Virus record (IMG/VR): IMGVR_UViG_3300032030_000021
Location: 29,122 to 93,121 of that record
Direction: 5' to 3' (one strand)
Origin: a virus
Lineage: Duplodnaviria > Heunggongvirae > Uroviricota > Caudoviricetes
Length of the DNA: 64,000 nucleotides
Shown here: in pieces, positions 22,159 through 44,142 of the stretch
How the letters are laid out: the number at the start of each line of letters is the position of its first letter
Position numbering within the stretch: position 1 is the first letter of the stretch
Program-made: the position numbers and the translations under genes
Notes under the pieces: model-generated
Told to the model about the DNA's origin: nothing
The model's input: the letters and a program-made list of their open reading frames with translations, nothing else
The model's database searches: none

Positions 22159-24048
22159 ATGATTCTTAATGAAAACGAACAGAGATATCGCAATCTGATT
22201 TCCGAAGAATTGCATGTCACTGATGAAAGAAAACTGAACTGGATGGCTCAAATGGCCAATGTTCATGCCATCAAAGAAGGCTTGCAGCCCAATAATGTTA
22301 GTGCGGATCATGGCGGCATTTATGCTACTCCTCTGAACACATTAGGTATTGGCAATCCTTTCATGCCTCAGGGTCTTGGAATGAACAATCCTAATCTTGG
22401 TGATGGTATTGGCAACACCGGTGCCGATTTCCACAATCCTGCTTATGTTAATGGTTCCGGTGATGTTCCTATGTCTACTCTTTCTATGGCATTGGAAGTT
22501 GCAGCCGTTACCGTTGGTTTCGACTTGGTCGCTACCGTCGTGGCTACCGGCCCTATGGCTATGTTGACCTTCGTTGATTATCCTTATGCTGGTGGTAAAC
22601 TCGGTCACATTGGCGAGACCTGGCAAGATGGCATTGGTCCTGACAACGAGAACAAACCCATTTACATCATGTTGAAGGGTGACATGGAAACCTCTATGAA
22701 GTTCCGCGACAATGAAAACGTAGAACCCGGCCGTACTACCGTGACGATCACCGGTGACACCGGCAAGTTCATTGGTATCTATATGGGCAACTCCCGTATC
22801 GACGGTTCCGCAATCTTCCAAGTGAAGAGTGTGAAGGAAGACGATAAAGATATTTCTATCGCTCAAATGTTCCAGAAGGAAGGCGTGTTCACAACCGATG
22901 CTAAAGATAAAGATGGTAATGATATCGTATTCGGTAAAGCCGGTACGCCGGGTTCCGGTACCGAAGGTGAAGATGACTATGTTGCTCCTACCGAAGGTAC
23001 TAATGTGAGACTGATCCCGGAACTGGTGAAAGGTATCACCGATCACATCCAGTCATTCTCTAACTTCTTCGGAAACAGAGTTGAGAATGAAGATGGTTCT
23101 TATAGCGTTGTTCCTTCCGACGATCCTATGACCAGAGCTCAAAACGAAACCGGTACTGGTAACACTATTGGTGTTCGTATGTTCTCTAAGATGATCCAAA
23201 TGGGTAACTATGAAGTGACCGGTGCTGTTACTCGTCAGCAGCTTCAAGATATGCCTCTGTATGGCATCGATGTTATTGGTGGTGTATTGGAAGCTTGTCA
23301 GGCCGAGATTTCCCAGGCTCTGAACAACCGTATCATCGACCGCGTTATGAAACTTGGTGTTGAGAACTACAAAGTACAGAAAGCCGTTCAAGGCTGCGAC
23401 TTCAACCTCTACCTCGGCAACGTAGTTAAGGAAGATGGTTCCGCTAACCTGTACAAACCTCTTAACGAGTTCAAGGCATACAACAAGTTCCGCGATTTGA
23501 ATGGTAAAACCGTTCCTTCCGTGAACATTCCGAACGCTACTAAGAACTCCAGCGCCGAGAACGTTACTACTCACCAGAGACGTATTGCTTCTCGTTGTAT
23601 GGCCGCTTCTAACTTGATCTCCAGCGTTACCCGTAGAGGTCGTGCTCATTGGATCCTGACCAATGCTCAGATCCTGACCGCTCTGCAGGATTGCTCCGGT
23701 TATGTGGTAGCTCCTATGGTTAACAATCTGGTTCAAGGTGGTGAAGAGAGCTTGTACTACGCAGGTTCTATTGCCGGTATGCAGATCTATGTTGATCCTT
23801 ACATGCTGTGGGAAGACACTCGTATCTGCGTTGGCCGTAGAGCTACCGTTACTAACAACCAAGTTCAAGGTTCCGGTGTGGTCTTCATGCCGTACATCCT
23901 CGCAGACACTGTGCAAATCGTTGCAGAAGGCACCATGGCTCCTAAGATGCTGGTGAATAGTCGTTATGCAATTGTAGACGCAGGTTTCTATCCCGAGCAG
24001 AATTACTATACCTTCATGGTGGAAACTGATTCTGATTTCATTATCTAA
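22159..24048 (+). CDS. major capsid protein, T4 gp23-like
   Basis: SMALEVAAVTVGFDLVATVVATGPMAMLTFVDYPYAG resembles gp23 VMGMVRRAIPNLIAFDICGVQPMNSPTGQVFALRAVYG. C-terminal HWILTNAQILTALQDCSGY...YYAGSIAGMQIYVDPYM resembles gp23 NFIIASRNVVNVLASVDTGISY...VFAGVLGGKYRVYIDQYA. Upstream region has AAATAAAT boxes. Confidence 0.7.
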   Translation: MILNENEQRYRNLISEELHVTDERKLNWMAQMANVHAIKEGLQPNNVSADHGGIYATPLNTLGIGNPFMPQGLGMNNPNLGDGIGNTGADFHNPAYVNGSGDVPMSTLSMALEVAAVTVGFDLVATVVATGPMAMLTFVDYPYAGGKLGHIGETWQDGIGPDNENKPIYIMLKGDMETSMKFRDNENVEPGRTTVTITGDTGKFIGIYMGNSRIDGSAIFQVKSVKEDDKDISIAQMFQKEGVFTTDAKDKDGNDIVFGKAGTPGSGTEGEDDYVAPTEGTNVRLIPELVKGITDHIQSFSNFFGNRVENEDGSYSVVPSDDPMTRAQNETGTGNTIGVRMFSKMIQMGNYEVTGAVTRQQLQDMPLYGIDVIGGVLEACQAEISQALNNRIIDRVMKLGVENYKVQKAVQGCDFNLYLGNVVKEDGSANLYKPLNEFKAYNKFRDLNGKTVPSVNIPNATKNSSAENVTTHQRRIASRCMAASNLISSVTRRGRAHWILTNAQILTALQDCSGYVVAPMVNNLVQGGEESLYYAGSIAGMQIYVDPYMLWEDTRICVGRRATVTNNQVQGSGVVFMPYILADTVQIVAEGTMAPKMLVNSRYAIVDAGFYPEQNYYTFMVETDSDFII

Positions 24049-24174: not shown

Positions 24175-25737
24175 ATGAAAGAATTAGATTTTGATTATCC
24201 GGAATTTGAAAAATTAAATCCATCTAATTGTAGAGAAGCATCTATTAGTATTCATTATCCCGAATTTAAGGAATATTTATACAACAAATATCCAGACATA
24301 CCGTTTCCTGAAAAAATATATTTATTTTATCATAACAAGGGCAATCCCGGGATTTGTAAGATGTGTGGAAATAAGACGAAATTTATTGGATTTAAGAAAG
24401 GATATAGGGAGTTTTGTTCTTACGAATGCATGAATTCTTGCGAAGAAATACAAGAACGCAAAAAAATTACATGTCGAAAAAATTATGGCACAGACAACCC
24501 TATGGGTAGTCTTGAGTTAAAAGAAAAAATAAAACGGACATGTTTAGAAAAATATGGAGTAGAGAATTGCTTTCAGTCACCGGAGCTCATGAAAAAAGCT
24601 CGAAAAACATGCAAAAGAAAATACGGGACGGAATATGCTACTCAGTCCCTGTCTGTAAAAGATAAAATATTAGAATCTAGAAGACAGAATATATTAAATA
24701 ATGATGACAGTATATTAGATATTATTCACACAGACAATCATTCCGATCTTTATATTATGAAGTGTCCGGATTCCGGATGCAATCTGTGTTCTAAAAAAAG
24801 ATATGAAATAAAATCTAATATATTATATGATCGTTGCAGATTAGGAGTAGACCCGTGCACTATAAGAACTCCAGTGGGGTCCCATATCAAAAATACGGGT
24901 CTTGAAAAATTTGTTCAAAATATATTAGATGAGTATCATATACATTATATAGCTAATGATAGAAGAATTTTGGATGGGAAAGAATTAGATTTATATATCC
25001 CGGATAGAAAAATAGCTATAGAATGCAATGGTGTATATTGGCATTCTAAATTAGATATGTTTTATCATTATAATAAGTGGCAATATTGTAAAGAAAAAGG
25101 AATTCAACTACTGTCGGTTTGGGAAGATTGGGTGACTAATAAACCGGATGTAATTAAAAATATTATATTGTCTAAGTTGAATATATATGATAATTTTATT
25201 GGTGCGCGAGAATGTGCGGTGGAGCCCGTATCCGCAAAAGAGGCGCGAGTGTTTTTAGATGAAAATCATATTCAAGGTTTTTGTAGTAGCACTATAAGAT
25301 ATGGATTATATTATAAAAATGAATTGGTGGCTTTAATGTGCTTCAAAAAAACTAATAATCCATCTTCTAAAAGGAATATTGGGTGGGAGTTATTAAGGTT
25401 TTGTTCGAAAATAGGATGGCACATAGCCGGGGGTGCTGGCAAGTTATTGAAATACTTCCGGGAAGATCATCCTGAACCAATTATATCATTTGCGTCTCAT
25501 GATATCTCTAATGGAAAATTATATGAAACACTCGGATTTCGGCATACTAGTGAAATTAAAACCTGCTATTGGTATGTCCATAACCAAACTCATAAAAGAT
25601 TTCATCGATCCTCATTTACTAAAAAAGAATTGGTAAGAAAAGGATATGATTCCAAGCTTACCGAAGAACAAATTATGATAAACTCAGATTATTTTAAAAT
25701 ATATGATTCCGGACAAACAAAATACATTTTGGAGTGA
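24175..25737 (+). CDS. free-standing homing-endonuclease-like protein (Vsr/DUF559-like nuclease domain plus zinc ribbon and tandem K-x-T-C-x-x-K-Y-G-x-E-N modules)
   Basis: Contains CKMCGNKTKF, three ~33-aa TC..KYG.EN repeats, and ELDLYIPDRKIAIECNGVYWHS (Vsr FVHGCFWHGH-like) followed by WEDW. Confidence 0.55.
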   Translation: MKELDFDYPEFEKLNPSNCREASISIHYPEFKEYLYNKYPDIPFPEKIYLFYHNKGNPGICKMCGNKTKFIGFKKGYREFCSYECMNSCEEIQERKKITCRKNYGTDNPMGSLELKEKIKRTCLEKYGVENCFQSPELMKKARKTCKRKYGTEYATQSLSVKDKILESRRQNILNNDDSILDIIHTDNHSDLYIMKCPDSGCNLCSKKRYEIKSNILYDRCRLGVDPCTIRTPVGSHIKNTGLEKFVQNILDEYHIHYIANDRRILDGKELDLYIPDRKIAIECNGVYWHSKLDMFYHYNKWQYCKEKGIQLLSVWEDWVTNKPDVIKNIILSKLNIYDNFIGARECAVEPVSAKEARVFLDENHIQGFCSSTIRYGLYYKNELVALMCFKKTNNPSSKRNIGWELLRFCSKIGWHIAGGAGKLLKYFREDHPEPIISFASHDISNGKLYETLGFRHTSEIKTCYWYVHNQTHKRFHRSSFTKKELVRKGYDSKLTEEQIMINSDYFKIYDSGQTKYILE

Positions 25738-27353
25738 TGGAGATACCAAATATTAGCAACCTTACATCCAAAGAACTTCAGGGTAAGTGGTTTGAAAAGA
25801 ATTATCTGGAGTTTTATCAGCATCTTGTAAATACATATCCAAATCTCCAAAAATTCACTGAAAAATTGTATTGGTATCTCCACGATATCAAAGAAACACC
25901 GAAATGTACTTGCGGAAAACCTCTGAAGTTCCGGAGTCTCAAGGTCGGATATTCCGAGTTCTGTTCGGCCAAATGTTCTAATTCTAATCCGGAAAAAATC
26001 AAAAAGACTAAAAATACATGTCAAGAACGATATAGATCCTCTTCTCCGGCCGGCAATAAAGACATCCAAGATAAAATGAGGAAAACATGTCTGGAAAAGT
26101 ATGGTGTAGAAAATTATCTAGAAATTTCCCATCGAACGGGAAGTCTTTCGGAAGAATCTAAGCAAAAAATGAAAGAAACCTGTATAGAAAGATACGGTGT
26201 GGAAAATGTGATGAAGCTTCCGGAATATCAAGTTATTGTCAATGGAAATAAAGATTATAAAAAACTATCGGAAAAAGCTCGAGAGGCTCGAAAAAACCGG
26301 GTTATGAATCAAAATCCGGATATAATATCTATAAAAAATGGTTTATGGACTTGCCGGTGTCCCCATCCCAATTGTACCAAATGCGATAAAAAATCATATG
26401 AAATAACGGCTCAAATGTATCATGATCGCCGAAGAGATCATACGGAGCCTTGTACTATACTTTTAGCACCTTCACCGAATAACAATAAAAATACTTCTTT
26501 AGAAATTTTTGTACGGTGTTTATTAGAAGAGCATAATATAGAATATATTGCAAATGATCGATCTATATTAGGAGGCAAAGAACTAGATATATACATTCCG
26601 GATCGGAAAATAGCCATAGAATGCAATGGTGTTTTTTCACATAGCTCTAGATATAAACCTAGAAATTATCATTATGAAAAATATAAAGCTTGTTCGGAGC
26701 GGAACATCCGTCTTATAAGTATCTGGGAGGACTGGGTTCGGAATAAGCCGGAAATTGTCCGGAGTCTGATTTTAAGCAAGCTGAACATATATGAGAACCG
26801 TATAATGGCTCGTAAATGTGAGGTGAAAGAGATAAATAGTAAAATAACAGGTAAATTTTTAGAAGAAAATCATATTCAAGGAAAAACTTCTTCAAATATA
26901 CATTTGGGCCTATATTATAAAAACGAATTGGTGGCGGTGATGCTGTTTGGAAAAAAACGAATGTGCTCCGGGAATAATAAAACAGCTGGGTGGGATTTAA
27001 GCAGATTTTGTACTAAAAGAAATATTTGTGTGATTGGGGGTGCGGGGAAGTTATTAAGTTATTTTATAAAACGGTGGTCTCCGGATATGATATATTCGTT
27101 TGCATCATGTGATATTTCTAATGGAAATCTTTATAAGTCTTTAGGGTTTGTAAATATAGGCCATTCCTCTTCATATTGGTATATAAACGAGCGCACCCTT
27201 CAAAGATATCATAGAAGTTCCTTTACTAAAAAATCCTTGATAAAACGAAACTGGGCTGATGGAACGGAAACTGAAACTGATGTAATGAATAATCATGGAT
27301 TCTTGCAAATCTATGATTCCGGTACGGAAAAGTGGATACTGAAGATTATCTAA
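25734..27353 (+). CDS. paralog of the upstream Vsr-like endonuclease
   Basis: Same architecture (ELDIYIPDRKIAIECNGVFSHS, ISIWEDWVRNKPE). ATGA overlap with the upstream paralog. Confidence 0.55.
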   Translation: MMEIPNISNLTSKELQGKWFEKNYLEFYQHLVNTYPNLQKFTEKLYWYLHDIKETPKCTCGKPLKFRSLKVGYSEFCSAKCSNSNPEKIKKTKNTCQERYRSSSPAGNKDIQDKMRKTCLEKYGVENYLEISHRTGSLSEESKQKMKETCIERYGVENVMKLPEYQVIVNGNKDYKKLSEKAREARKNRVMNQNPDIISIKNGLWTCRCPHPNCTKCDKKSYEITAQMYHDRRRDHTEPCTILLAPSPNNNKNTSLEIFVRCLLEEHNIEYIANDRSILGGKELDIYIPDRKIAIECNGVFSHSSRYKPRNYHYEKYKACSERNIRLISIWEDWVRNKPEIVRSLILSKLNIYENRIMARKCEVKEINSKITGKFLEENHIQGKTSSNIHLGLYYKNELVAVMLFGKKRMCSGNNKTAGWDLSRFCTKRNICVIGGAGKLLSYFIKRWSPDMIYSFASCDISNGNLYKSLGFVNIGHSSSYWYINERTLQRYHRSSFTKKSLIKRNWADGTETETDVMNNHGFLQIYDSGTEKWILKII

Positions 27354-28484: not shown

Positions 28485-30611
28485 ATGATAAATACTAACC
28501 TTACCGCTATAAGATGGAAAAAGAATCTTTATTACATATCAGAAGGTGTTATTTTCGATATTCGAAATAAAGTAAGACCGGATGATAAAGATGAATGTGG
28601 TTCTTTTCTTATCGATTTTTCTAAGGCAGATGAGGTATCTAAAAATGCCGCAATAGGCGCCACCGTAAACCTCACCAATCAGACCGAACTCTTTTCCGGT
28701 CTGCCCTGGATTGAAGTACAGTTTAGCAATCCCGATTTAAACATTGCTGTGCCGTTACAATATCTTATTGAAGAAGGAGATGTCTTTGTAGATGATAATG
28801 TCGGTCAATCACACCCCAATGTTTATAATAAAGATTATCGCAATAAATTCAATCAGGAAATCTTTGAATATATCGGTGAATATGTTAATTCCAAAAATTC
28901 ATTAAATACCGCCGATTTTAATCAACTGATGTCTACATTACCAGCTTGGTTGACGTGCGATGCCGGTACGGAAATGACCGAGAGTTTTGTTCTCAATAAT
29001 TTCCTCAAAGGCAAACCCTGGGATGCTAATACCGCTATGCTCGGCACCGATGCCGTGGTTAGCCTTGTAGGAGTTACTCTTAAGACTCCGGCCGGTAATG
29101 CTAATATCTCCGATAGCTGGACGGAAGCTACTATTCGCAAGGCCGCTTTAGCATTCTATGCGGCTAAATCCATGTCCACTTTATGCATACCGGCGGATAT
29201 GAAGGAGGATATTGCTAATAGTATTATAGCAAAAGGCGAGATAGTAAATGCCGAAGATAATAAGCTAACCGCATTGCATCATATTGATTATACCGGAGAA
29301 GGTTCCGTAAGCGGATCCGAATTTGTGGATAAAGCTACAAATGCCGATACCTGGTGGGAATATGAAGGTGCCGATACCGCCCCCAAGTGGGAAGAACAAG
29401 GTAGAGAAACCATCACGGAGTGTGTTCAAGAGGACGGCGAAAATACCGGTATGGCAGTTAAAACCACTACTATAACTTATATAGATACTAACAAATACTC
29501 CGAAACCTACAATCAGACCAGAACCGAAACCGAAACCGAAACCGTAGAAGATCTGATTTCTTGTCCGCTGCCAGAACACGATACTACTCCTAACTGGGAA
29601 GAACAAGGTAGAGAAACTACTACCGAATGTGTCCAGAAAGACGGCGAAAATACCGGTATGGCAGTTAAGACTACTACTATAACCTATCTGGATACTAATA
29701 AGTACTCCGAAACCCACGACCAGACTAAAACGGAGACTGAAACCGAAACGGTAGAGGATCTGATTTCTTGTCCGCTGCCAGAGCCCGAACCTATTATTCC
29801 GGAGGATTATGTGGTTCCGGAATCCGCTGATCAGATCCCAACGGAAAACACCGAATCCGTTGATATGGCTCTTACCGGTGATGATGTAGTGAATTCATTC
29901 AATAGTGGTGCCGTTTTCAATAATCTGATAGTTGCAGATGCTAATGTTTCATCTAACATTTCTTTAAATGCTGTTGATACCGTAAAGGTTAATGGTATTG
30001 AAGTTAGTGGAACGAAAGGCGCAGGAAACGGAAAGATCATGATCAGCGCACCTAATGTAAACATCAAAGACGTAGATATTAATCCAGGTTGCACCGTATA
30101 TAATGTATTTGAAGGAGATCAGAAGCTGACCGGCAACGGACTTACCGTGTTTGTTGCGGATGGTATAACAGTTGATGATCCGGACCTCAAACACAATGTG
30201 TTCAACATCTATAATCCGGAAAATAATGCCGAGATTACAGTAAAGAATTCTTCATTCAATCTGAATATGAAGACTTCTAACGTGATGCGGTTGTCTAACC
30301 TCAAAAATGCCGAGAATGTAACGGTAATATTTGAGAACGTGGATTGGACGTATGAGAATGCCCCATATGCCGATGGAGATAAAGAATGGGCCGGATTGGT
30401 TATTTATCAACCGTTTGGAAATGATGCCGCTCATTCCGGTGACGATTCCGCTATTAATACCTGGACGTTCAAATTCAAGAACTGCCGATATAATGGTATG
30501 AATGTTGATGCTAATGAATTTGGCGAAGCTCATCAGGTCATTTATTTCTACGATATGGGTGGAAGAGGTGCATCCGAGAATCCGGTTGGGCCGACTATTC
30601 TCTTCGATTAA
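28485..30611 (+). CDS. large structural-like protein with two copies of the ETETETVED module and a C-terminal beta-helix-like region
   Basis: 708 aa. The module is repeated at aa ~300-365 and ~366-430. The C-terminal N/V/T-rich segments alternate like a parallel beta-helix (fibre/depolymerase-like). Confidence 0.45.
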   Translation: MINTNLTAIRWKKNLYYISEGVIFDIRNKVRPDDKDECGSFLIDFSKADEVSKNAAIGATVNLTNQTELFSGLPWIEVQFSNPDLNIAVPLQYLIEEGDVFVDDNVGQSHPNVYNKDYRNKFNQEIFEYIGEYVNSKNSLNTADFNQLMSTLPAWLTCDAGTEMTESFVLNNFLKGKPWDANTAMLGTDAVVSLVGVTLKTPAGNANISDSWTEATIRKAALAFYAAKSMSTLCIPADMKEDIANSIIAKGEIVNAEDNKLTALHHIDYTGEGSVSGSEFVDKATNADTWWEYEGADTAPKWEEQGRETITECVQEDGENTGMAVKTTTITYIDTNKYSETYNQTRTETETETVEDLISCPLPEHDTTPNWEEQGRETTTECVQKDGENTGMAVKTTTITYLDTNKYSETHDQTKTETETETVEDLISCPLPEPEPIIPEDYVVPESADQIPTENTESVDMALTGDDVVNSFNSGAVFNNLIVADANVSSNISLNAVDTVKVNGIEVSGTKGAGNGKIMISAPNVNIKDVDINPGCTVYNVFEGDQKLTGNGLTVFVADGITVDDPDLKHNVFNIYNPENNAEITVKNSSFNLNMKTSNVMRLSNLKNAENVTVIFENVDWTYENAPYADGDKEWAGLVIYQPFGNDAAHSGDDSAINTWTFKFKNCRYNGMNVDANEFGEAHQVIYFYDMGGRGASENPVGPTILFD

Positions 30612-30633
30612 TCGAAAATCAAAAATATTGGAA

Positions 30634-30661
30634 AAGACCTTCTTCGGAAGGTCTTTTTTTT
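30634..30661 (+). terminator. rho-independent terminator
   Basis: AAAGACCTTCttcgGAAGGTCTTT plus T8. Confidence 0.75.
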
Positions 30662-30711
30662 GCTTCATTTTTGCACATATCCGTTATATATAATTGTATA
30701 TATTAAAAGAT

Positions 30712-31167
30712 ATGAAAATTATTAAAAATACCAAGGAGCCAAAAACCCAAAAATGTCCGGCATGTGGAAGTGTCTGGGAGTTAGAAAACAACGAATCGGA
30801 ATTGAGCGAATGTCCCGTCTGCGGAGCATATATTGAGATCCGGGAGCCGAAGATATTTGTTAAAGAAAGAACCATCAATGCAGTTATGGATCAATTGGAT
30901 TTCGAAAAAATCCATACTATCATGGAGGTTCTAGACTGGACATGGTGGGATCAAGATGTGCCCTCGATAGAAACTCTTAAAAAACATGCATATGATTTGC
31001 TAGAATATGCCTGGGAACATAAATGTTCAACCGGTACTGGAGGATTCTGGGTGGAATATGAAGGCGAAACAGACGAAGACTATCCGATGTTAAAAATATC
31101 ATTCCAGGCTTCCTGGTCCAGTTCTTGTTGGGTGGATAAAAAAAGCAATAAAATGGAATATGCATAA
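30712..31167 (+). CDS. zinc-ribbon protein
   Basis: CPACGSVWELENNESELSECPVCG. The track ORF starts at a TTG at 30694 inside the promoter-like box; the first ATG is at 30712. Confidence 0.45.
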   Translation: MKIIKNTKEPKTQKCPACGSVWELENNESELSECPVCGAYIEIREPKIFVKERTINAVMDQLDFEKIHTIMEVLDWTWWDQDVPSIETLKKHAYDLLEYAWEHKCSTGTGGFWVEYEGETDEDYPMLKISFQASWSSSCWVDKKSNKMEYA

Positions 31168-31256
31168 ACTATTATAAATTCAAAAGGTCATAAAAATGTT
31201 ATTTACGGTTATATATGTTTAATAAACTTTATTTTTCATTTTAATTTTCAAAATCT

Positions 31257-32759
31257 ATGTCAACATTTATCATTATTGCGGGAGCTGTAGCTCTATTTCT
31301 GATTCTGATCTTCGCATCTTACGTGAAGACTCCTCCTCAAGTAGCCCTAATTATCTCGGGTATTTCTAAGACCCCCAGGGTTTTGATTGGTAAGGGAGGT
31401 ATTCGTGTTCCTTTCTTCGAGAGATTGGATAAAGTCTTTCTTGGGCAGACTTCAGTGGATATCAAGACCTCCGTACCGGTTCCTACTAAAGATTTTATTA
31501 ATGTTCGGGTAGATGCTGTTGCTAAGGTCCGGGTAATGAATACTCCGGAAGGTATTCGATTAGCTGCTAAGAACTTTCTTAATATGACAGAAAGAGATAT
31601 TGCTAATCAGATTCAGGATTCTCTAGAAGGTAACATGCGAGAGGTAATTGGTTCTATTGGACTAAGAGAGTTGAATACCGATCGTGATGGTTTCTCCGAT
31701 CAGATTGCTAAAAAGGCCGCTCCGGATATGGAGAAACTTGGTATTGAAATTCTTTCTTGCAATATTCAGAACATCACTGATGAAAAAGGTTTGATTTCCG
31801 ACTTGGGTGCTGATAATACATTTGCTATCAAGAAAACAGCGGCTATCACGAAGGCTAACGCGGAAAAGGAAATTGCTATTGCTCAATCAAATGCTAAGAA
31901 AGAAGCTAATGATGCTGAGGTTAAAAACGAAACCATAATTGCGGAACGTCAAACCGAGCTAGCTGTCAAGAAAGCTGACCTCCAAGTCAAGGCGGACACC
32001 CAGAAAGCCGTGGCGGACGCGGCATATCAGATCCAACAACAGGAACAGCAGAAAACCGTCAATGAGAAAACCGTAGAAGCCGAGATGGCTAAACAGTTAC
32101 TTACTCAACAGAAGCAAAAAGAGGTCAACGCGGCGGCAGTGGAGGCTCAGACTGAAAAAGCTCGTAAGGAACAAGAACTGACTGCTGAGCAAGTCAAAAT
32201 TCAACAGAATAAGTTAGAGGCCGTAATTCAGAAACAAGCGGATGCGGATAAGTATAAGCAAGAAATCGATGCCAAGGCCGAACTTGAACAGAGAAAACGT
32301 CGTGCTGAGGCCGAAGCATATGAGGCGGAGCAAAACGCTAAAGCTGTAATGGCTATGGCCGAAGCCGCTCAATTCAAGATGGAGCAGGAAGCCCTGGGTA
32401 AGAAAAAACTTGCGGATGCCGAAGCCTATAGTATTATGGAAAAGGGTAAAGCGGAAGCGGAAGCATTAAGACTCAAAGCGGAAGCCTATAAAGAATATGG
32501 CGATGCCGCCAAGGCCCAGATGGTCATCGAAAAACTTCCGGAAATTGCAGCCGCTGTTGCTCAGCCGATCTCAACCATCAAGGATGTCCGGATTTATGGT
32601 TCCGATGGAAGCGGTATCAACCAGCTCTCCGGCAATGTCCCAGCCGTGATCAAGCAGACGATGGATACCGTGAGCGATGCTACCGGTGTAGACATGAAGG
32701 AGATCGTGAAGAGCTCCACACTGGAAACCGCCGCCAAACGTCCTCTGGCTAACGAGTAA
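31257..32759 (+). CDS. flotillin / SPFH (band-7) domain protein
   Basis: N-terminal TM helix, SPFH-like core (GGIRVPFFERL...VDIKTSVPV..TKDFINVRVDAV), then a long A/E/K/Q-rich coiled coil (AEAEAYEAEQNAKA...) typical of the FloT/YqiK flotillin domain. Confidence 0.65.
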   Translation: MSTFIIIAGAVALFLILIFASYVKTPPQVALIISGISKTPRVLIGKGGIRVPFFERLDKVFLGQTSVDIKTSVPVPTKDFINVRVDAVAKVRVMNTPEGIRLAAKNFLNMTERDIANQIQDSLEGNMREVIGSIGLRELNTDRDGFSDQIAKKAAPDMEKLGIEILSCNIQNITDEKGLISDLGADNTFAIKKTAAITKANAEKEIAIAQSNAKKEANDAEVKNETIIAERQTELAVKKADLQVKADTQKAVADAAYQIQQQEQQKTVNEKTVEAEMAKQLLTQQKQKEVNAAAVEAQTEKARKEQELTAEQVKIQQNKLEAVIQKQADADKYKQEIDAKAELEQRKRRAEAEAYEAEQNAKAVMAMAEAAQFKMEQEALGKKKLADAEAYSIMEKGKAEAEALRLKAEAYKEYGDAAKAQMVIEKLPEIAAAVAQPISTIKDVRIYGSDGSGINQLSGNVPAVIKQTMDTVSDATGVDMKEIVKSSTLETAAKRPLANE

Positions 32760-32776
32760 TCATCATTTCAAGAACA

Positions 32777-32807
32777 AAAAAGACCTTCGGAGAAGGTCTT
32801 TTTTTTT
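32777..32807 (+). terminator. rho-independent terminator after flotillin gene
   Basis: AAAGACCTTCggagaaGGTCTTT plus T9. Confidence 0.7.
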
Positions 32808-32842: not shown

Positions 32843-33589
32843 ATGATGAAATTATCAAAAAAAAATATGAGATATATACTGATACCGGATGTGCATGGCC
32901 GGGATTTCTGGAGATCGGCAATAGAAACTCGCCGAAATGATGATATGGTGATCTTTTTAGGAGACTATGTAGACCCATATTCTCATGAAAAAATCACTAA
33001 TGAAACCGCGCTGCATGGTCTGAAAGATATTATAGGACTTAAAAAATCCGATCCGGATCATATTGTTCTTCTTTTGGGCAATCACGACCTAGGGTATATA
33101 GCAGGTCAGGATTTCTGTTCTTCCAGACACTGGAGTGGCGGACACGCTAGTCTTCATGAAATATTCGGCAAAAATATAAAACTATTCGATATTTTCTATA
33201 TGGCCGAAGATATCTTGATAAGTCATGCTGGGGTCTATCCTTATTGGATGAATCATTGTAATCTCAATTTAGATACATTTAAGGATTTTAATAACGGGAT
33301 TCATAGTGAAGATCCAAGTATTGTAAATAAAACAATCCTCGATCTATATTACATAGATATGTGGCGCGGGGGGTGGTGCATGGCGGGTTCTCCAGTCTGG
33401 GCTGATATCCGGTGTGCTTTGAAAGGATATAATCTCGATCTGAAACAGATAGTAGGACATACTCAGCTAGAAAAGGATCCCGTCCGGGTTGGAGATATAA
33501 CCTGTATAGACTGCCGGAGAGCATTCTTGTTGGAAGACGGAGAATTGAAAGAATTGGACGGCAGCTCTCCAAATATTTCGGAATATTAA
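32843..33589 (+). CDS. PPP-family Ser/Thr protein phosphatase-like metallophosphoesterase
   Basis: IPDVHG ... GDYVDPYSHE ... LLGNHD, the calcineurin-like signature. Confidence 0.6.
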   Translation: MMKLSKKNMRYILIPDVHGRDFWRSAIETRRNDDMVIFLGDYVDPYSHEKITNETALHGLKDIIGLKKSDPDHIVLLLGNHDLGYIAGQDFCSSRHWSGGHASLHEIFGKNIKLFDIFYMAEDILISHAGVYPYWMNHCNLNLDTFKDFNNGIHSEDPSIVNKTILDLYYIDMWRGGWCMAGSPVWADIRCALKGYNLDLKQIVGHTQLEKDPVRVGDITCIDCRRAFLLEDGELKELDGSSPNISEY

Positions 33590-34998: not shown

Positions 34999-35769
34999 AT
35001 GGATATTTATGCAAAATACCTAGGTGAAACTCCGGAAATCATAAATCCTAACAAGAACGGTCGTCCGTTTTTTATACCGGAAGACGTTATTGATAATCTA
35101 GATTGGTCTTTACAAAACAATGGTTTTGATTCCATATGCTGGGAGGGAAACATAATAACCCAGATATGGGAGAATAAATATGGGTGGTTTGACTTTTCTA
35201 AAAATCTTATAGATATCGGAGCCGGATGCGGCGAATATCCGATATTTGCCGGATTTGCTCATTCGTATGCATTCGAACCCAATAAAACCAAGCAATGCTT
35301 CTTGTATGCCAATATGTTATGCCATGATAAAATTCATAACATAGATGTATTGCCATATTGTATAGGAGATGTAGAAAAATCGGAAACATTCAATGGCTGG
35401 ACTTCCGATAAAGATACCGATTTTGGCGATACCGGAGACCTGGTTGAGTATCGGACATTAGATAGTTTTAATTTTGAAAATATCGGGTTGATCAAAATAG
35501 ACATTGAGGGATTTGAATATTATGCTATAAAATCCGGATTAGGCACCATTATACGGAATAACTATCCTCCGTTGTTAATAGAAGTGTGGAATGATGCGGA
35601 TTTAGATGGTTATTTCGGAGAAAGGGCTCCGATATATAAAGAACGCCGGAATCATCTTTTAAATATATTAGCCCGACTGGGATATATAATGATCAATGAT
35701 CCGGACTTAGGCGATTGGGAAACCAGATTTTTTATACACCGCACTCAACCCGGAAGCTATAAACTATGA
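34999..35769 (+). CDS. FkbM-family SAM-dependent methyltransferase
   Basis: IDIGAGCGEY...FEPNK...TLDSF...IGLIKIDIEGFE is the FkbM signature. Confidence 0.6.
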   Translation: MDIYAKYLGETPEIINPNKNGRPFFIPEDVIDNLDWSLQNNGFDSICWEGNIITQIWENKYGWFDFSKNLIDIGAGCGEYPIFAGFAHSYAFEPNKTKQCFLYANMLCHDKIHNIDVLPYCIGDVEKSETFNGWTSDKDTDFGDTGDLVEYRTLDSFNFENIGLIKIDIEGFEYYAIKSGLGTIIRNNYPPLLIEVWNDADLDGYFGERAPIYKERRNHLLNILARLGYIMINDPDLGDWETRFFIHRTQPGSYKL

Positions 35770-37541
35770 TAGAATTATATTATAATCCAAAAGATTCCCG
35801 GCATATCCTAGTGATGCACGACGGGACTATGAAGGAAGTTTCCGATCGAAAAGGCACTCATCGGACATCCGAGATTCTTTTATTAGAAAAACATCTGAAC
35901 AAAATACCGGACTATCAGTTTCTGCCATCATTCACCGGCATACAAAGGCCGATGGTGTTTTTAGAAAAGAAGAAGATCAAGGACAAATGGGTATACTATT
36001 GTGTGAGGGGGTTATGGCATGAAATCAAGACTTGGTGCAAGGAATCCGGCATCATATGTAATGGGGTGTATAATATCTCCGATTACGGCAAGCTCGATAA
36101 AAAACCGGACACTTCTTTCCAGCTAACCAATTTTGATATGTCCGAAGAGTCTTTTATGGAGTATGTGAATAATTGGGGCCTGAATTTAGATCTGCGGCCA
36201 TATCAGTATAAAGCCATATGGACTATACTTCATTACCGGCAGTCTATGTCTCAACTAGCCACCCGAGCGGGCAAGACCCTGATAGCCTATGTCATATTCC
36301 GATATATGCTAGAGCACGGAGCTAAGAAGATTCTGATGGTGGTCCCGAATATCAATCTAGTAAGACAGGGTGTGAAAGATATGAAGGACTATCAGGAGTA
36401 TTTCAAGTCCGAAGAGGTCTGGGCGCAAGGCGAATACTGCCAATGCGCTAATCTGACCATCGGAACATTCCAGTCCCTGATCAAGAGATGCGTGCCCGGC
36501 AAGAAATATAAGCCGAATAAACATTACGATCCGCATTTTTTCGACGGATATGATGTAATATGTATAGATGAATGCCATAAGGCGGATTGCGATTCCATTA
36601 AGACCATCATGAAACAGGAATTTGTCCGCGATGCTAAGCTTATCTTCGGGTTTTCCGGAACCATTCCGGATGCTAATACTATCGAGAACTATGGTGTGCA
36701 GGCTATCCTAGGTCCGATGATACAAGATATCTCTACTATGGAATTGGTAGATGCCGGGTATCTAGCCAAACCCATTGTGAGGCAAATCAGAATGCACTAT
36801 GAAGATTCGCCGGAGTTATTGGATAAATATATTAAGTATGGAGAATACTTATGCGGCCGAGATACCGGAGAGAAACTAGAAAGTCCTGATATTGGAATTA
36901 ATAAAGTTAAATCCCTTCCTATTGTGCTCCGTGAATCTAAAGGTCTATATGAGAAAGAAGAATATAAGCAGATCTTAATAGATATGTGCAAGGCCAAAGG
37001 AGCCGCTCTCCTGAATCTGGAGCAGCTCCTGGCTATGAACTCTCGAGGAAAGATAGATACTATTATGCGGATATTGTCTGACTGGCCGGATAAGAACGGT
37101 ATCGTGTTTGCTCATAATGAAGAATACGTGGATTACTTATATAAATATCTATCAGAGACTCTAGATCGTCCGGTATATAAGATAAAAGGATCCACCACCA
37201 ACAAGAAACGGGAAGCTATTAAGAAGGCAATGAATGAAATCGATAAGAATGCGGTGTTGGTAGCTAGCTATGGATGTGTGGCTACCGGATTGACATTCTC
37301 CAATATCGATTGGTGTATCTTCGCCCAATCCTTCAAGTCTCCGATTCTGGTCATGCAGTCCATCGGAAGAGGACTGCTAAAGACCGAAGAGAAAGACCGG
37401 TTTATTGTTTATGACCTTATAGATGTATTTTCCACCGGAAGACTGGAGAAACATGGTAAGGAAAAAACTAAGCATTATGCCAAGGTCGGATATGAGCATT
37501 CTACTCGATCCGAGAACCTGAAATATATTCCTATATTTTAA
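35766..37541 (+). CDS. superfamily-2 DNA/RNA helicase (DEAH-box type)
   Basis: RPYQ (Q-motif), ATRAGKT (Walker A), ICIDECHKA (DECH), plus C-terminal helicase motifs. Confidence 0.7.
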   Translation: MIELYYNPKDSRHILVMHDGTMKEVSDRKGTHRTSEILLLEKHLNKIPDYQFLPSFTGIQRPMVFLEKKKIKDKWVYYCVRGLWHEIKTWCKESGIICNGVYNISDYGKLDKKPDTSFQLTNFDMSEESFMEYVNNWGLNLDLRPYQYKAIWTILHYRQSMSQLATRAGKTLIAYVIFRYMLEHGAKKILMVVPNINLVRQGVKDMKDYQEYFKSEEVWAQGEYCQCANLTIGTFQSLIKRCVPGKKYKPNKHYDPHFFDGYDVICIDECHKADCDSIKTIMKQEFVRDAKLIFGFSGTIPDANTIENYGVQAILGPMIQDISTMELVDAGYLAKPIVRQIRMHYEDSPELLDKYIKYGEYLCGRDTGEKLESPDIGINKVKSLPIVLRESKGLYEKEEYKQILIDMCKAKGAALLNLEQLLAMNSRGKIDTIMRILSDWPDKNGIVFAHNEEYVDYLYKYLSETLDRPVYKIKGSTTNKKREAIKKAMNEIDKNAVLVASYGCVATGLTFSNIDWCIFAQSFKSPILVMQSIGRGLLKTEEKDRFIVYDLIDVFSTGRLEKHGKEKTKHYAKVGYEHSTRSENLKYIPIF

Positions 37542-41701: not shown

Positions 41702-42127
41702 ATGAAACATATAAATGAATCTATAATAGGAAGAAAAGGAATTACCAGTATTCCGAAGCTGGAAAATCATGATATTGTTAAATTAGACAATGATCATTAC
41801 TACATGGTTGTCTTAGATGAATATGAGATGAAACTCGCTAAACTAGATTTTTTTAAAAGCCAGGTCACGGAAGGGATCCTTTTAAGATATGAAGCATCTA
41901 GCCGGTCTTGGTCTTGGCAACCAATAAATGAATATAGTCTGCTGGACTTAAAAATAAACCCGAAATTTAAAAGCACAATATCACTAGACATATGTGAAGT
42001 ATATCGGAGTCTTTCGGCTATCACTACTAAATATAACAATCATCTATATATGTGGTGTGATGAAGAAAATATGAAAGAAAAAATCAAAAAAGGATACGGA
42101 GTTTATAAATTATTGTGGAAAAGATAA
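41702..42127 (+). CDS. tagged-family protein
   Basis: Starts MKHINESIIGRKGIT. Confidence 0.6.
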   Translation: MKHINESIIGRKGITSIPKLENHDIVKLDNDHYYMVVLDEYEMKLAKLDFFKSQVTEGILLRYEASSRSWSWQPINEYSLLDLKINPKFKSTISLDICEVYRSLSAITTKYNNHLYMWCDEENMKEKIKKGYGVYKLLWKR

Positions 42128-42151: not shown

Positions 42152-42577
42152 ATGAAGACATTACAAGAATCTATAATAGGAAGAAAGAATTCGAGCTCGG
42201 TTCTAAAACATGATCGCACGGGGCTTTATGAGGGTGATATAGTCTATTTTAAATGCCATCCGTATAAACCATATGTAGTTATATTAAATCCTGATATATA
42301 TAAAAAATTCCTGTTACCGAGATCATTGAAAGATTATGATTGTACGGAGGGGGTCCTCATAACCCCCGGTAGAGATGGTTCTTATGGATTTATGGTTCTA
42401 TCGGATTATGATAAAAATCTTAAATTTACGGAAAACTCCGATCCGTGGAACATAACTGAAGTAAAAAGAGGATATATTGGATCACATCGGCTTGATAAAT
42501 TATTAAATGATATAGATGGCATATATGACATATCGAGAGGTTTTAAAACCGTTTTTGAAAACGGGAAATGGCTATAA
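42152..42577 (+). CDS. tagged-family protein
   Basis: Starts MKTLQESIIGRKNSS. Confidence 0.6.
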   Translation: MKTLQESIIGRKNSSSVLKHDRTGLYEGDIVYFKCHPYKPYVVILNPDIYKKFLLPRSLKDYDCTEGVLITPGRDGSYGFMVLSDYDKNLKFTENSDPWNITEVKRGYIGSHRLDKLLNDIDGIYDISRGFKTVFENGKWL

Positions 42578-42884: not shown

Positions 42885-43337
42885 ATGGTAAGAGAAAAAA
42901 TAAACATCCCAAAACATCCTAAAGAATTCAGAACTGTAAAACTAAAAGATCTGAAACCTCACCCCGGAAACCCTCGCCACAATGAGCGAAGTGCCGAGAT
43001 GGTGGCGGAGTCAATCAAATCATATGGATACATCTCTCCGATAGTGGTATCCGAAGATAATACTATTCTGGCAGGACATACCAGATATAAAGCTCTTAAG
43101 ATCTTAGGACAGGATGAGGCTGAAGTTATAGTGGTGTTCGGACTCACTCCGGAAGAGATATTGGGTTTCGTTATTGCCGATAACCGTATCGGAGAATATT
43201 CCGGATGGAATTATGAAGCCGTCAATCGGATGATTGGAGACATCGAAGACAAATCTATGATGAACAAAATGGGAATGTCTACCTATGAAGACAATAAGAA
43301 AGAATTAGAGGATCTGATCAATGGAATCGAAACATAG
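42885..43337 (+). CDS. ParB/Srx-like nuclease domain protein (DpdB-like partner candidate)
   Basis: KLKDLKPHPGNPRHN...ISPIVVSEDNTILAGHTRYKALKILG is the ParB N-terminal domain signature. Overlaps the downstream TGT-like gene. Confidence 0.6.
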   Translation: MVREKINIPKHPKEFRTVKLKDLKPHPGNPRHNERSAEMVAESIKSYGYISPIVVSEDNTILAGHTRYKALKILGQDEAEVIVVFGLTPEEILGFVIADNRIGEYSGWNYEAVNRMIGDIEDKSMMNKMGMSTYEDNKKELEDLINGIET

Positions 43338-44142
43338 ATTTGTATATGGGCTTGGTGGGGGCCTGGTATATTCTACCGGTCAAGGCGGAAAATGGCAAGA
43401 AAATCTCCCTAAGATCTTGGCCACTTTTGATAATGCCGTTCTAGTAAGTCCGGTAGATATGCCTAAGAAGGCAGCTATTTTGATATACAATAGTGTAGGC
43501 ACAGATCGATTCTATTTGGACTCCGGGGGTTTCACACTCTTCAAGGATCAAGTCAAGCTCGGAGCGGATAACCCGGAATTCCACACCAAGTGCGAAAAGA
43601 TGAAAAATAAATTTCTCAATATCCTCAAAGAAGTCCGCCCAGTGGAAGTCTTTGAATTAGATAATGAATATTTCCGGCACGATCCTGATATGCTTTCTCC
43701 GAAGAACTATTGCCGGCAAGAAATCTATGATATTATAGGCAAGTATCCGACTCCGGTATTCAAGATGCACCAAGGTTTTGAATATTGGAAACGATTATGC
43801 GAGTGTGATCTATATCCCCGACTAGCTATCGGCGGTCTGGCTCAGACCCGGGAATGGAATAAGCATCCGGAGGAGTTTCGGAAGATGATGGCTTATGCCC
43901 GGCAATGTGGTAAGAAAGTCCACCTTCTGGGTTGCTATAATGTGGATGCCTTCAAGACTATCCGGCCGGATACCGCTGACTGGTCTATATTCGAGTTCAA
44001 GCAGAATATCAAGAGAGCCCGCCGGGAACATCCGGAACTTAAGACACATGCCGAGCTTTCTATACACGCGGCTCTTTATGCATTCGCTCGAGCCAGGTCT
44101 AAATCATTTCTTTATGATACATGCTTGGACGAAAACGAATAA
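43321..44142 (+). CDS. second TGT-family protein (DpdA-like DNA transglycosylase candidate)
   Basis: FYLDSGGFTLF matches TGT DSGGFQ (catalytic Asp region). RLAIGGLAQ matches GYAIGGLSVGE. KVHLLGCYNVDAF matches YLMGVGKPDDI. Confidence 0.55.
   Translation: MESKHRFVYGLGGGLVYSTGQGGKWQENLPKILATFDNAVLVSPVDMPKKAAILIYNSVGTDRFYLDSGGFTLFKDQVKLGADNPEFHTKCEKMKNKFLNILKEVRPVEVFELDNEYFRHDPDMLSPKNYCRQEIYDIIGKYPTPVFKMHQGFEYWKRLCECDLYPRLAIGGLAQTREWNKHPEEFRKMMAYARQCGKKVHLLGCYNVDAFKTIRPDTADWSIFEFKQNIKRARREHPELKTHAELSIHAALYAFARARSKSFLYDTCLDENE

What the first reader, a model, noticed from the sequence alone, without database searches (positions are those of the whole stretch)
31257..32759. Phage-encoded flotillin / SPFH-domain membrane protein
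The ORF has an N-terminal TM helix, an SPFH-like core and a long AEA/EAE-rich flotillin-type coiled coil. Flotillins organise functional membrane microdomains in bacteria. A phage copy could reorganise the host membrane for DNA entry or replication, for exclusion of other phages, or for assembly. It is uncommon in phage genomes and is flanked by its own terminators.
Basis: partly seen in the sequence, partly recalled or inferred. Interest (0 to 1): 0.6.

Follow-up and report, generated by a model that had tools for sequence, protein, structure and literature searches.

The report
Host-derived flotillin gene in a phage
A large T4-like phage, probably of rumen Bacteroidales, carries a complete and strongly conserved copy of its host's flotillin membrane-scaffold gene; SPFH and flotillin genes are already annotated in other phages, but their role in infection is untested.

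Summary
The ORF at 31257-32759 (+, 500 aa) is real and is a full-length flotillin. It has an N-terminal TM helix, an SPFH/Band_7 core (Pfam E 2e-22), about 240 residues of A/E/K/Q-rich helix and a flotillin C-terminal domain. It aligns end to end with human flotillin-1. The window is a large T4-like myovirus.

The closest cellular homologues, at 72-78% identity, are chromosomal flotillins of rumen Bacteroidales. The phage copy has phage-like codon composition (GC3 0.44 against 0.75-0.80). Its dN/dS within the lineage is 0.014-0.03, so it is an old, functional capture. Other phage-like contigs carry their own copies, which fall in at least four separate groups interleaved with bacterial ones. 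A profile scan found 189 matches in IMG/VR; the best 80 sit on contigs with a median length of 114 kb.

The most likely mechanism is inferred, not shown: a membrane-anchored oligomeric cage that supplements or co-assembles with host flotillin during infection.

The terminator claim is only half right. The upstream hairpin precedes a Zn-ribbon ORF, not the flotillin gene.

SPFH and flotillin genes are already annotated in cultured phages, so this is a new member of a known kind. Interest is moderate (0.4).

The parts
30632..30657 (+). Terminator-like hairpin plus U-tract that closes the upstream tail-fibre-like gene. It is the upstream boundary of the unit holding the Zn-ribbon ORF and the flotillin gene.
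   Evidence: One search lists the hairpin. One search gives -16.2 kcal/mol, z -4.3. The same AGACCTTC...GAAGGTCT core occurs 3 times in the window against 0 expected.
30712..31167 (+). Zn-ribbon ORF of 151 aa (157 aa from the TTG at 30694), with CPACG...CPVCG motifs. Function is unknown. It is linked upstream of the flotillin gene throughout this phage lineage.
   Evidence: Pfam gives sub-threshold zinc-ribbon hits (DUF5817, LysW-like). It is present upstream of flotillin in L013, L014, L097, L098 and L095. A 26%-identical homologue lies two genes upstream of flotillin in the different phage L015. dN/dS is 0.11.
31208..31217 (+). Promoter-like motif GGTTATATAT, 48 nt upstream of the flotillin ATG. 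It belongs to a TTATATA motif class found about 28 nt upstream of many non-structural genes in the window.
   Evidence: This is an inference from motif recurrence only. L095 has CGATTATATAA upstream of its flotillin gene, but L097 lacks the motif.
31257..32759 (+). Flotillin-family CDS of 500 aa.
   Evidence: dN/dS is 0.014-0.030.
31257..31325 (+). N-terminal hydrophobic membrane anchor, residues 1-23.
   Evidence: Kyte-Doolittle mean 2.77. The AlphaFold2 model has a helix at residues 2-21.
31332..31868 (+). SPFH/Band_7 domain, residues 26-204.
   Evidence: Pfam PF01145 at E 1.9e-22. pLDDT is about 78-89 across residues 29-175.
31842..32501 (+). A/E/K/Q-rich long helices (coiled-coil region), residues 196-415.
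   Evidence: 64% AEKQ. Model helices at 179-275 and 293-439. The region aligns with the coiled coils of flotillin-1.
32502..32756 (+). Flotillin C-terminal (oligomerisation) domain, residues 416-500.
   Evidence: Pfam Flot scores 26.0 bits against a cut-off of 27 over residues 382-474. phmmer aligns this stretch with the flotillin-1 C-terminus. The region is highly conserved among phage and bacterial homologues.
32776..32804 (+). Intrinsic terminator-like hairpin (13-bp stem) plus U-tract, downstream of the flotillin gene.
   Evidence: One search gives -15.2 kcal/mol, z -3.3.
32843..33589 (+). Metallophosphoesterase (NinI-like Ser/Thr phosphatase family). It is the conserved downstream neighbour in this phage lineage only.
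   Evidence: Pfam Metallophos at E 3.8e-9. phrog_246 at E 5e-5. It is adjacent to flotillin in L013, L095 and L097 but not in other flotillin-carrying phages.

Best explanation
The ORF encodes a complete flotillin, an SPFH-family membrane scaffold, carried by a large T4-like myovirus whose host is probably a rumen Bacteroidales bacterium.

**Shown here**
- The protein has the full flotillin architecture.
- Its nearest cellular relatives are chromosomal Bacteroidales flotillins at 72-78% identity.
- Its codon composition matches the phage, not the bacteria.
- It is under very strong purifying selection in the phage lineage.
- Several phage-like contigs with unrelated gene neighbourhoods carry their own host-like copies.

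**Inferred**
- After infection the protein is made from its own promoter-like site, of the class that precedes non-structural genes.
- It inserts into the host cytoplasmic membrane through its N-terminal helix, with the bulk facing the cytoplasm.
- It oligomerises through its long helices and C-terminal domain into a large ring or cage, like the 44-subunit flotillin-1/2 complex or the 24-subunit HflK/C complex. It may do so alone or mixed with host flotillin.
- The cages fence off patches of membrane. They thereby keep up, or redirect, flotillin-dependent membrane functions (fluidity, integrity, organisation of membrane protein complexes) during the infection cycle of a large phage that has shut down host gene expression.

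The client proteins are unknown.
For: **Identity**
- Band_7 at E 1.9e-22, and Flot at 26 bits against a cut-off of 27.
- The FloT model matches at E 1.5e-66.
- The protein aligns over residues 26-489 with human flotillin-1, E 9e-48.
- The AlphaFold2 model shows a TM helix, an SPFH domain, two very long helices and a small C-terminal domain.
- The Foldseek top hits are the flotillin complexes 9bq2 and 9l3g, E 1e-22.

**Phage context**
- Sheath, protease, major head protein, baseplate, SSB, helicase and polymerase are present.
- The MCP of a close relative carries Pfam Gp23.
- Synteny is identical on independent contigs.

**Host origin**
- Homologues at 72-78% identity sit next to RuvC, Tig-ClpP-ClpX, DnaN/IF-2, UvrB, DnaG and EttA in Bacteroidales MAGs.

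**Old, functional residence in the phage**
- GC3 is 0.44 against a window mean of 0.40 and bacterial values of 0.75-0.80.
- dN/dS is 0.014-0.030, lower than the helicase at 0.04-0.05.

**Recurrence**
- Copies occur in unrelated phage-like neighbourhoods.
- They fall in at least four groups interleaved with bacterial copies; the main labelled clades have 90-100% bootstrap support.
- A profile scan found 189 stretches in IMG/VR. The best 80 contigs have a median length of 114 kb and phage-like gene structure around the gene.

**No sign of neofunctionalisation**
- Phage and host proteins are collinear with no domain loss.
- Only 7 columns separate phage from bacterial copies, mostly by conservative changes.

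**Cage architecture of SPFH proteins**
- PMC11260169 (read).
Against: - Nothing here demonstrates expression, membrane localisation, oligomerisation or any effect on infection.
- The timing argument rests only on a recurring upstream motif, which is absent in one close relative.
- No conserved partner gene was found across flotillin-carrying phages. There is no NfeD neighbour, so the context gives no clue to clients.
- 'Supplementing host flotillin' is an argument by analogy with other host-derived phage genes.
- The physiological role of bacterial flotillins is itself debated.
Confidence: 0.55

Rival explanations
1. Membrane protection or counter-defence. The phage flotillin stabilises the infected cell's membrane against premature collapse until assembly is complete. 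The threat could be membrane-disrupting abortive-infection effectors, envelope stress or early holin leakage. In effect the protein delays lysis.
For: - SPFH proteins and flotillins are linked to membrane protection, fluidity and the PspA response in Bacillus (PMC8581546).
- A membrane-remodelling dynamin that has a reported genetic link to flotillin delays phage lysis (PMC8844932).
- The gene is concentrated in large phages, which might be expected to have long latent periods.
- It is under strong constraint.
Against: - There is no linkage to lysis genes or known anti-defence genes.
- PADLOC finds nothing in the neighbourhood.
- This is a specialised version of the main explanation, and sequence alone cannot separate the two.
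Confidence: 0.15
2. Protease control. Like HflK/C around FtsH, the phage flotillin cage encloses and restrains, or redirects, a host membrane protease such as FtsH. This would protect phage proteins or alter host membrane protein turnover.
For: - HflK/C-FtsH structures are among the fold matches (7vhq, 9cz2, 7wi3; E 1e-8 to 1e-12).
- From general knowledge, not tested here: HflK/C modulates the lambda lysis-lysogeny decision through FtsH, and B. subtilis flotillins interact with FtsH.
Against: - The protein is much closer to flotillins than to HflK/C.
- No protease gene or protease inhibitor is linked to it.
- The window shows no lysogeny module for which FtsH control would matter.
Confidence: 0.12
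3. Superinfection exclusion. The membrane scaffold blocks DNA entry of later-arriving phages.
For: It is a membrane protein that appears to be expressed from a non-late promoter class. Known exclusion proteins of T4, Imm and Sp, are membrane proteins (general knowledge).
Against: - It matches no defence or exclusion family.
- It is 72-78% identical to housekeeping host flotillins, with no phage-specific domain. Any exclusion activity would have to be a property of ordinary flotillin.
Confidence: 0.08
4. Virion or assembly component. The protein is packaged, or it scaffolds head or tail assembly at the membrane.
For: - SPFH-domain proteins were detected by mass spectrometry in virions of Erwinia jumbo phages (PMC7760394; PMC6034870).
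- The gene lies just after tail-fibre-like genes.
Against: - It has an integral membrane anchor.
- It lacks the TATAAATA motif found 18-21 nt upstream of the sheath and protease genes.
- It sits in different, non-structural neighbourhoods in other phages.
Confidence: 0.05
5. It is not a functional phage gene. It could be a recent passenger, an assembly chimera, or a host flank of a prophage.
For: It is very similar to host genes.
Against: - Gene order is the same on at least 4 independent contigs from different samples.
- Phage genes lie on both sides across the 64 kb.
- Its GC3 is phage-like.
- dN/dS is 0.014-0.03 at dS 0.6 to more than 2.
Confidence: 0.02

Closest known systems
Chromosomal flotillins of rumen and gut Bacteroidales (MAG loci L023-L037, L071, L087; P0119)
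   Same: They are 60-78% identical and collinear over the whole length, with the same TM anchor, SPFH domain, coiled coils and C-terminal domain. Like the phage gene, they have no NfeD neighbour in the neighbouring genes that were annotated.
   Different: - They sit among housekeeping genes, with GC3 of 0.75-0.80 in the nearest clade.
- The phage copy sits among phage genes, with GC3 of 0.44.
- Only a few residues differ consistently between phage and bacterial copies, for example T73V.
Bacillus subtilis FloT (NCBIfam NF058507)
   Same: It has the same family and the same domain order. The model matches residues 27-293 at E 1.5e-66.
   Different: The score is 225 bits against an equivalog cut-off of 700, so the protein is not a FloT equivalog. 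The organisms belong to different phyla. The NfeD partner typical of Firmicutes flotillin operons (general knowledge) is absent here.
Eukaryotic flotillin-1/flotillin-2 cage (PDB 9bq2, 9l3g)
   Same: These are the best sequence and fold matches. The alignment spans residues 26-489. They supply the oligomeric cage model (PMC11260169).
   Different: - Identity is about 27-28%.
- The eukaryotic proteins use acylation and hydrophobic loops for membrane attachment, not a TM helix, and they form hetero-oligomers.
- Oligomer state was not tested here.
SPFH or flotillin genes already annotated in cultured phages: Vibrio phage KIT04 'flotillin family protein', csAssE-Sib, T4-like 44RR/Aeh1/RB43, RaK2-like jumbo phages, and phrog_200
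   Same: They are phage-encoded SPFH-family membrane proteins of unknown role.
   Different: - They are only distantly related: 26-28% identity over the SPFH domain only, and phrog_200 matches at E 1e-5.
- Most are short SPFH lipoproteins, not full-length host-like flotillins.
- No selection or origin analysis was found in the papers searched.
E. coli HflK/C-FtsH and QmcA-YbbJ (NfeD) complexes
   Same: They share the SPFH fold and the cage principle (QmcA at E 1e-9).
   Different: The similarity is much weaker. No partner protease or NfeD gene is linked to the phage flotillin.

Membership tests
Flotillin family (SPFH superfamily) | SPFH/Band_7 domain | tested here: met
   Pfam PF01145 at E 1.9e-22, 80.6 bits against a cut-off of 23.6, residues 26-204.
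Flotillin family (SPFH superfamily) | Flotillin-type C-terminal domain (PF15975) | tested here: met
   hmmscan gives 26.0 bits, just under the cut-off of 27. The precomputed annotation of the identical protein P0001 lists PF15975. phmmer aligns residues 335-489 with the flotillin-1 C-terminus at E 6e-13.
Flotillin family (SPFH superfamily) | Long EA-rich coiled-coil between the SPFH domain and the C-terminal domain | tested here: met
   Residues 196-415 are 64% A/E/K/Q. The model has helices at 179-275 and 293-439.
Flotillin family (SPFH superfamily) | N-terminal membrane anchor | tested here: met
   Residues 1-23 are hydrophobic, Kyte-Doolittle mean 2.77. The model has a helix at residues 2-21.
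Flotillin family (SPFH superfamily) | Assembly into a large ring or cage oligomer on the membrane | not testable with these tools
   Only a monomer model was possible. Assembly is inferred from homology to 9bq2 and 9l3g.
FloT equivalog (NCBIfam NF058507) | Whole-protein score at or above the curated cut-off of 700 bits | tested here: not met
   The score is 225.4 bits. The protein belongs to the flotillin family but is not a FloT equivalog.
Flotillin/SPFH-NfeD operon | Adjacent NfeD-family partner gene | tested here: not met
   Neither flanking gene, nor the other six genes scanned across 27.4-38.5 kb, hits NfeD. NfeD was also absent from the neighbouring genes annotated for bacterial and other phage homologues.
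Host-derived phage auxiliary gene | Embedded in a phage genome, nearest relatives cellular, and maintained by selection | tested here: met
   Phage genes lie on both sides. Synteny holds on independent contigs. Bacterial homologues reach 72-78% identity. dN/dS is 0.014-0.03. GC3 has converged on the phage value.
Known anti-phage defence or exclusion systems (PADLOC) | Match to a defence-system protein model | tested here: not met
   There is no hit for the flotillin gene or for six of the seven other genes scanned. The seventh, the metallophosphatase, gives only two noise-level hits at E about 0.007-0.01.

The most novel reading that the evidence does not exclude
Flotillin may be a convergently captured host-takeover factor of large Bacteroidales phages. 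On this reading, different phage lineages have repeatedly taken the host's flotillin and kept it nearly host-identical because it must co-assemble with host flotillin. The mixed cages would be used to control the infected cell's membrane, for example to resist membrane-collapsing abortive-infection responses or to time lysis. In one clade the phage copies branch basal to a bacterial clade. That also leaves open that phages ferry flotillin genes between Bacteroidales lineages.
Probability: 0.2. Interest if true: 0.65.

Novelty: new member of a known kind. Interest (0 to 1): 0.4.

Why it matters
Bacterial flotillins are widespread, but their physiological role is still debated. A phage that keeps a host-like flotillin under stronger constraint than its own helicase, together with several phage-like lineages that carry separate copies, indicates that flotillin activity matters during infection. 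That offers a natural perturbation for finding out what flotillin cages do in bacteria. It also adds a membrane-organising gene to the list of host-derived auxiliary genes of large gut and rumen phages. The effect on infection is not known, so for now this is a well-supported annotation plus an evolutionary pattern, not a new mechanism.

Tried and rejected
- **Nucleotide search.** Megablast of 28-36 kb against 50,697 phage records gave no match, so no cultured relative exists to borrow annotation from.
- **NfeD partner.** None was found in the phage or in the bacterial loci examined.
- **Defence or exclusion families.** PADLOC found nothing.
- **Conserved partner across flotillin-carrying phages.**
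  - All-against-all clustering of flanking ORFs from 94 loci found almost no shared neighbours.
  - The Zn-ribbon ORF recurs only in this lineage, plus weakly in L015.
  - The metallophosphatase recurs only in this lineage.
- **Relatives of this phage that lack the gene.**
  - The helicase-based scan found one fragment.
  - The MCP-based scan found one contig that ends before the region, and one 59%-identical relative with no flotillin within 10 kb of the MCP. That result is uninformative because the rest of that genome was not examined.
- **Convergent phage-specific substitutions.** Only 7 columns were found, mostly conservative changes. There is no evidence of neofunctionalisation.
- **Timing class from promoters.**
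  - TTATATA motifs precede non-structural genes and TATAAATA motifs precede structural genes, which is suggestive.
  - The motif upstream of flotillin is not conserved in L097, so this is kept only as weak evidence.
- **Literature.** Seven searches found annotations of phage SPFH and flotillin genes but no functional study.
Full report
**1. The observation**

The ORF at 31257-32759 (+ strand, ATG start, 500 aa) is the only long ORF at this position.
- Residues 1-23 (MSTFIIIAGAVALFLILIFASYV) give the highest hydropathy window in the protein, a Kyte-Doolittle mean of 2.77.
- Pfam Band_7/SPFH matches residues 26-204 at E 1.9e-22.
- Pfam Flot matches residues 382-474 at 26.0 bits, just under its cut-off of 27.
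- The NCBIfam FloT model matches at E 1.5e-66, but at 225 bits against an equivalog cut-off of 700.
- Against PDB sequences the best matches are human flotillin-1 (9l3g, 9bq2; E 9e-48) and flotillin-2. The two aligned stretches together cover residues 26-489.
- An AlphaFold2 model (mean pLDDT 70; about 78-89 in the SPFH domain) shows a helix at 2-21, an alpha/beta SPFH domain at 29-175, helices at 179-275 and 293-439, and a small C-terminal domain.
- The Foldseek top hits for that model are the flotillin complexes 9bq2 and 9l3g (E 1e-22), followed by HflK/C, QmcA, stomatin, erlin and prohibitin.

The structural description is confirmed.

**2. Terminators and the transcription unit**

A 13-bp hairpin followed by a U-tract lies at 32776-32804, 17 nt after the stop codon. 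It folds at -15.2 kcal/mol, z -3.3.

A nearly identical hairpin at 30632-30657 (-16.2 kcal/mol) lies upstream of the preceding ORF, not directly upstream of the flotillin gene. The same AGACCTTC...GAAGGTCT core occurs a third time at 14878, with none expected by chance.

The unit bounded by the two hairpins therefore contains two genes: a 151-aa Zn-ribbon ORF (30712-31167; sub-threshold zinc-ribbon Pfam hits) and the flotillin gene.

The 89-nt spacer between them is unstructured. It carries GGTTATATAT 48 nt upstream of the flotillin ATG.
- TTATATA occurs at about 28 nt upstream of the start codons of at least ten genes in the window.
- Those with an annotation are non-structural: dCTP-deaminase-like, PurZ-like, FkbM methyltransferases, metallophosphatases, an AAA_28 protein and a sigma factor.
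- T4-late-like TATAAATA lies 18-21 nt upstream of the LRR-domain protein, head-protease and tail-sheath genes.

This weakly suggests the flotillin gene belongs to a non-late expression class. The motif is present upstream of flotillin in the relative L095 but not in L097, so I treat it as a lead only.

**3. The window is a phage**

The PHROG and Pfam matches are:
- head maturation protease (6981-8396);
- tail sheath (8437-11427);
- major head protein (22159-24048; the close relative's MCP carries Pfam Gp23);
- two homing-endonuclease-like ORFs;
- helicase (35766-37541);
- gp32-like SSB (44921-46015);
- baseplate wedge (46079-47767);
- DNA polymerase (50418-53369);
- a sigma factor (62518-63495).

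No tRNA genes are present. No cultured phage is similar at the nucleotide level.

The identical flotillin protein, and variants 95-98% identical to it, sit in the same gene order on independent contigs from different samples. That order is MCP, twin endonuclease-like genes, variable tail-fibre-like genes, Zn-ribbon ORF, flotillin, metallophosphatase, then helicase. An assembly chimera or a host flank is therefore excluded.

**4. Where the gene came from**

A search of 5.8 billion proteins gave thousands of homologues. I examined their contexts.

*Bacterial contexts.*
- Homologues at 72-78% identity lie in Bacteroidales MAG contigs, many named as rumen, omasum or reticulum samples.
- They sit next to RuvC, a TonB-dependent receptor, Tig-ClpP-ClpX, LMW-PTP, MutY, DnaN/IF-2, UvrB/QueC, DnaG, ClpB, EttA and ornithine aminotransferase.
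- A 60%-identical cluster (P0119) lies between a nucleoside phosphorylase and MnmE, near AspRS.

These are true chromosomal genes.

*Other phage-like contexts.* Other homologues at 57-81% identity lie in unrelated phage-like neighbourhoods:
- L015, with terminase, DNA ligase, ThyA and T4_Y16D;
- L018-20, with gp32, on contigs of 248-413 kb;
- L021, with T4 gp15;
- L016/17, labelled a Prevotella MAG but with PIF1 helicase and many small ORFs;
- L094, a 366-kb contig with NAPRTase, NAD synthase and HSP70.

*Phylogeny.* A bootstrapped neighbour-joining tree of copies with labelled context gives these groups:
- the window lineage plus L015 (100%);
- a bacterial clade L023-26/L071/L087 (100%);
- a mixed clade (100%) in which L020+L017, L005 and L022 branch basal to the bacterial L027-L037;
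- L090 as sister to the bacterial L093 (100%);
- L094 and L039+L040 elsewhere.

Phage copies are therefore polyphyletic. At least four phage-host exchange events are needed. This is a distance tree, some deep nodes are weak (24-52%), and some contexts are labelled only from gene structure.

**5. It is an old and functional phage gene**
- GC3 of the phage gene is 0.44, within the window's distribution (0.40 ± 0.08). The nearest bacterial homologues have GC3 of 0.75-0.80.
- Within the phage lineage, Nei-Gojobori dN/dS is 0.018 (window against L097, dS 0.64) and 0.014-0.030 for the more diverged pairs, where dS is saturated.
- Over the same comparisons the helicase gives 0.04-0.05, the metallophosphatase 0.10-0.15 and the Zn-ribbon ORF 0.11.
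- Phage and bacterial proteins are collinear with no domain loss.
- Only seven columns separate phage from bacterial copies, mostly by conservative changes.

The phage therefore keeps ordinary flotillin activity under tight constraint.

**6. How common it is**
- Among 50,697 deposited phage records, only 11 have a tblastn match and 5 cover at least 80% of the protein.
- Two cultured or curated phages already carry the annotation 'flotillin family protein': Vibrio phage KIT04, a T5-like phage, and csAssE-Sib.
- A profile-based scan of IMG/VR found 189 encoding stretches.
- The best 80 lie on contigs with a median length of 114 kb. Of these, 46 are at least 100 kb and 7 are at least 200 kb.
- Their neighbourhoods have phage-like gene structure, with a median ORF of 150 aa, mostly on one strand. 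The bacterial loci have median ORFs of 220-470 aa.
- SPFH genes have been noted in T4-like phages since 2006 (PMC1524935), in RaK2-like and Erwinia jumbo phages (PMC7760394, PMC6034870) and in a recent oak-decline phage study (PMC13239085). In each case the function is stated to be unknown.
- I found no functional study.

**7. Mechanism**

*Shown:* family membership, complete architecture, host origin, long residence in the phage, strong constraint, and recurrence across phages.

*Inferred from homology:*
- The N-terminal helix anchors the protein in the cytoplasmic membrane. No positive charge precedes the helix and lysines and arginines follow it, so the bulk should face the cytoplasm, as in Bacillus flotillins.
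- The long helices and C-terminal domain drive assembly into a large ring or cage that delimits a patch of membrane, as in flotillin-1/2 (22+22 subunits, 19-32 nm; PMC11260169) and HflK/C.

*Inferred by analogy with other host-derived phage genes:* phage-made flotillin supplements, replaces or co-assembles with host flotillin. This would keep flotillin-dependent membrane functions running, or redirect them, during the infection cycle of a large phage.

*Rival or more specific roles.* Each is listed above with its evidence:
- membrane protection or counter-defence and lysis timing;
- HflK/C-like control of FtsH;
- superinfection exclusion;
- a virion or assembly role.

None is favoured by gene context. 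PADLOC finds nothing, there is no NfeD gene, and no partner is conserved across phage lineages.

**8. Verdict**

- It is a new member of a known kind. Phage SPFH and flotillin genes are already annotated, and this one is an ordinary, host-like flotillin.
- What this analysis adds is the evolutionary pattern: host-derived, with codon composition converged on the phage, more constrained than the phage's helicase, captured separately by several phage-like lineages, and found mainly on large viral contigs.
- That pattern makes the gene a reasonable target for experiments on what flotillin does during infection.
- No new mechanism is demonstrated. Interest is 0.4.

Noticed in passing
window 16937-18043 (also 13666-14187 and 15956-16828): There is a PurZ-like adenylosuccinate synthetase (phrog_1211 at E 9e-38; Pfam Adenylsucc_synt at E 5e-21) with a dCTP-deaminase-like gene nearby. 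This may indicate a 2-aminoadenine (Z-base) genome. Homologues of 15956-16828 and 16937-18043 also lie side by side in loci L070 and L074, near a flotillin homologue.
   Followed up: partly
window 43321-44142 and 60081-60986: There is a queuine tRNA-ribosyltransferase-like (DpdA/TGT-like) gene (phrog_887 at E 9e-14) and a QueE-like radical SAM gene (phrog_2076 at E 2e-45). These are candidate 7-deazaguanine DNA-modification genes, in the same phage as the PurZ-like gene.
   Followed up: no
window 24175-25737 and 25734-27353: Two tandem paralogous ORFs of 520 and 539 aa, homing-endonuclease-like (phrog_3339 at E 1e-113 and 1e-111), lie directly after the major head protein gene. They are conserved as a pair in relative L097, where they are annotated DUF7487.
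   Followed up: no
window 14878-14897, 30635-30654, 32781-32799: The same terminator hairpin core, AGACCTTC-loop-GAAGGTCT, is used three times against 0 expected by chance. All three fold at -14.5 to -16.2 kcal/mol.
   Followed up: yes
window 11632, 37612, 50308: A 20-nt motif GATC(G/T)CTTGTTA(T/A)ATCGCAAA occurs three times on the + strand. Each copy is 82-110 nt upstream of a start codon, including that of the DNA polymerase gene. It is a possible regulatory or promoter element.
   Followed up: no
window-wide intergenic regions, e.g. 11685, 14927, 30684, 44170, 57590, 58360, 62490 against 4012, 6960, 8416: There are two upstream motif classes. TTATATA lies about 28 nt before the ATG of at least ten genes; those with an annotation are non-structural. 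T4-late-like TATAAATA lies 18-21 nt before the LRR-domain protein, protease and sheath genes. A phage sigma factor gene (62518-63495; phrog_351 at E 1e-20) is also present.
   Followed up: partly
window 28485-30611: This 708-aa ORF has no family match. It contains an internal tandem duplication of about 75 aa (TxPxWEEQGRETxTECVQxDGENTGMAVKTTTITYxDTNKYSET...ISCPLPE, twice). Related phages carry different genes at this position, so it is probably a variable tail-fibre or adhesin gene.
   Followed up: no
loci L004, L006-L012, L108, L110, L112-L131, L152, L156, L162, L163 and L179, among other IMG/VR contigs carrying flotillin: Coding density is only 0.53-0.83 when ORFs are called with genetic code 11. 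This suggests stop-codon reassignment in many of the large gut phages that carry flotillin.
   Followed up: no
L016/L017 (GCA_017386025.1 contig JAFNQP010000900, labelled Prevotella sp. MAG): The gene content of this MAG contig looks like a large phage: PIF1 helicase, SmpB, DUF2828, many small ORFs on one strand, and IS605 OrfB. The same sequence sits on a 188-kb metagenome contig, so it is probably a phage mis-binned into a bacterial MAG.
   Followed up: no
window 41702-42127, 42152-42577, 48171-48575, 61016-62078: A family of paralogous ORFs of about 140 aa is present in at least five copies in the window. It is shared with the flotillin-carrying phage L001/L021.
   Followed up: no
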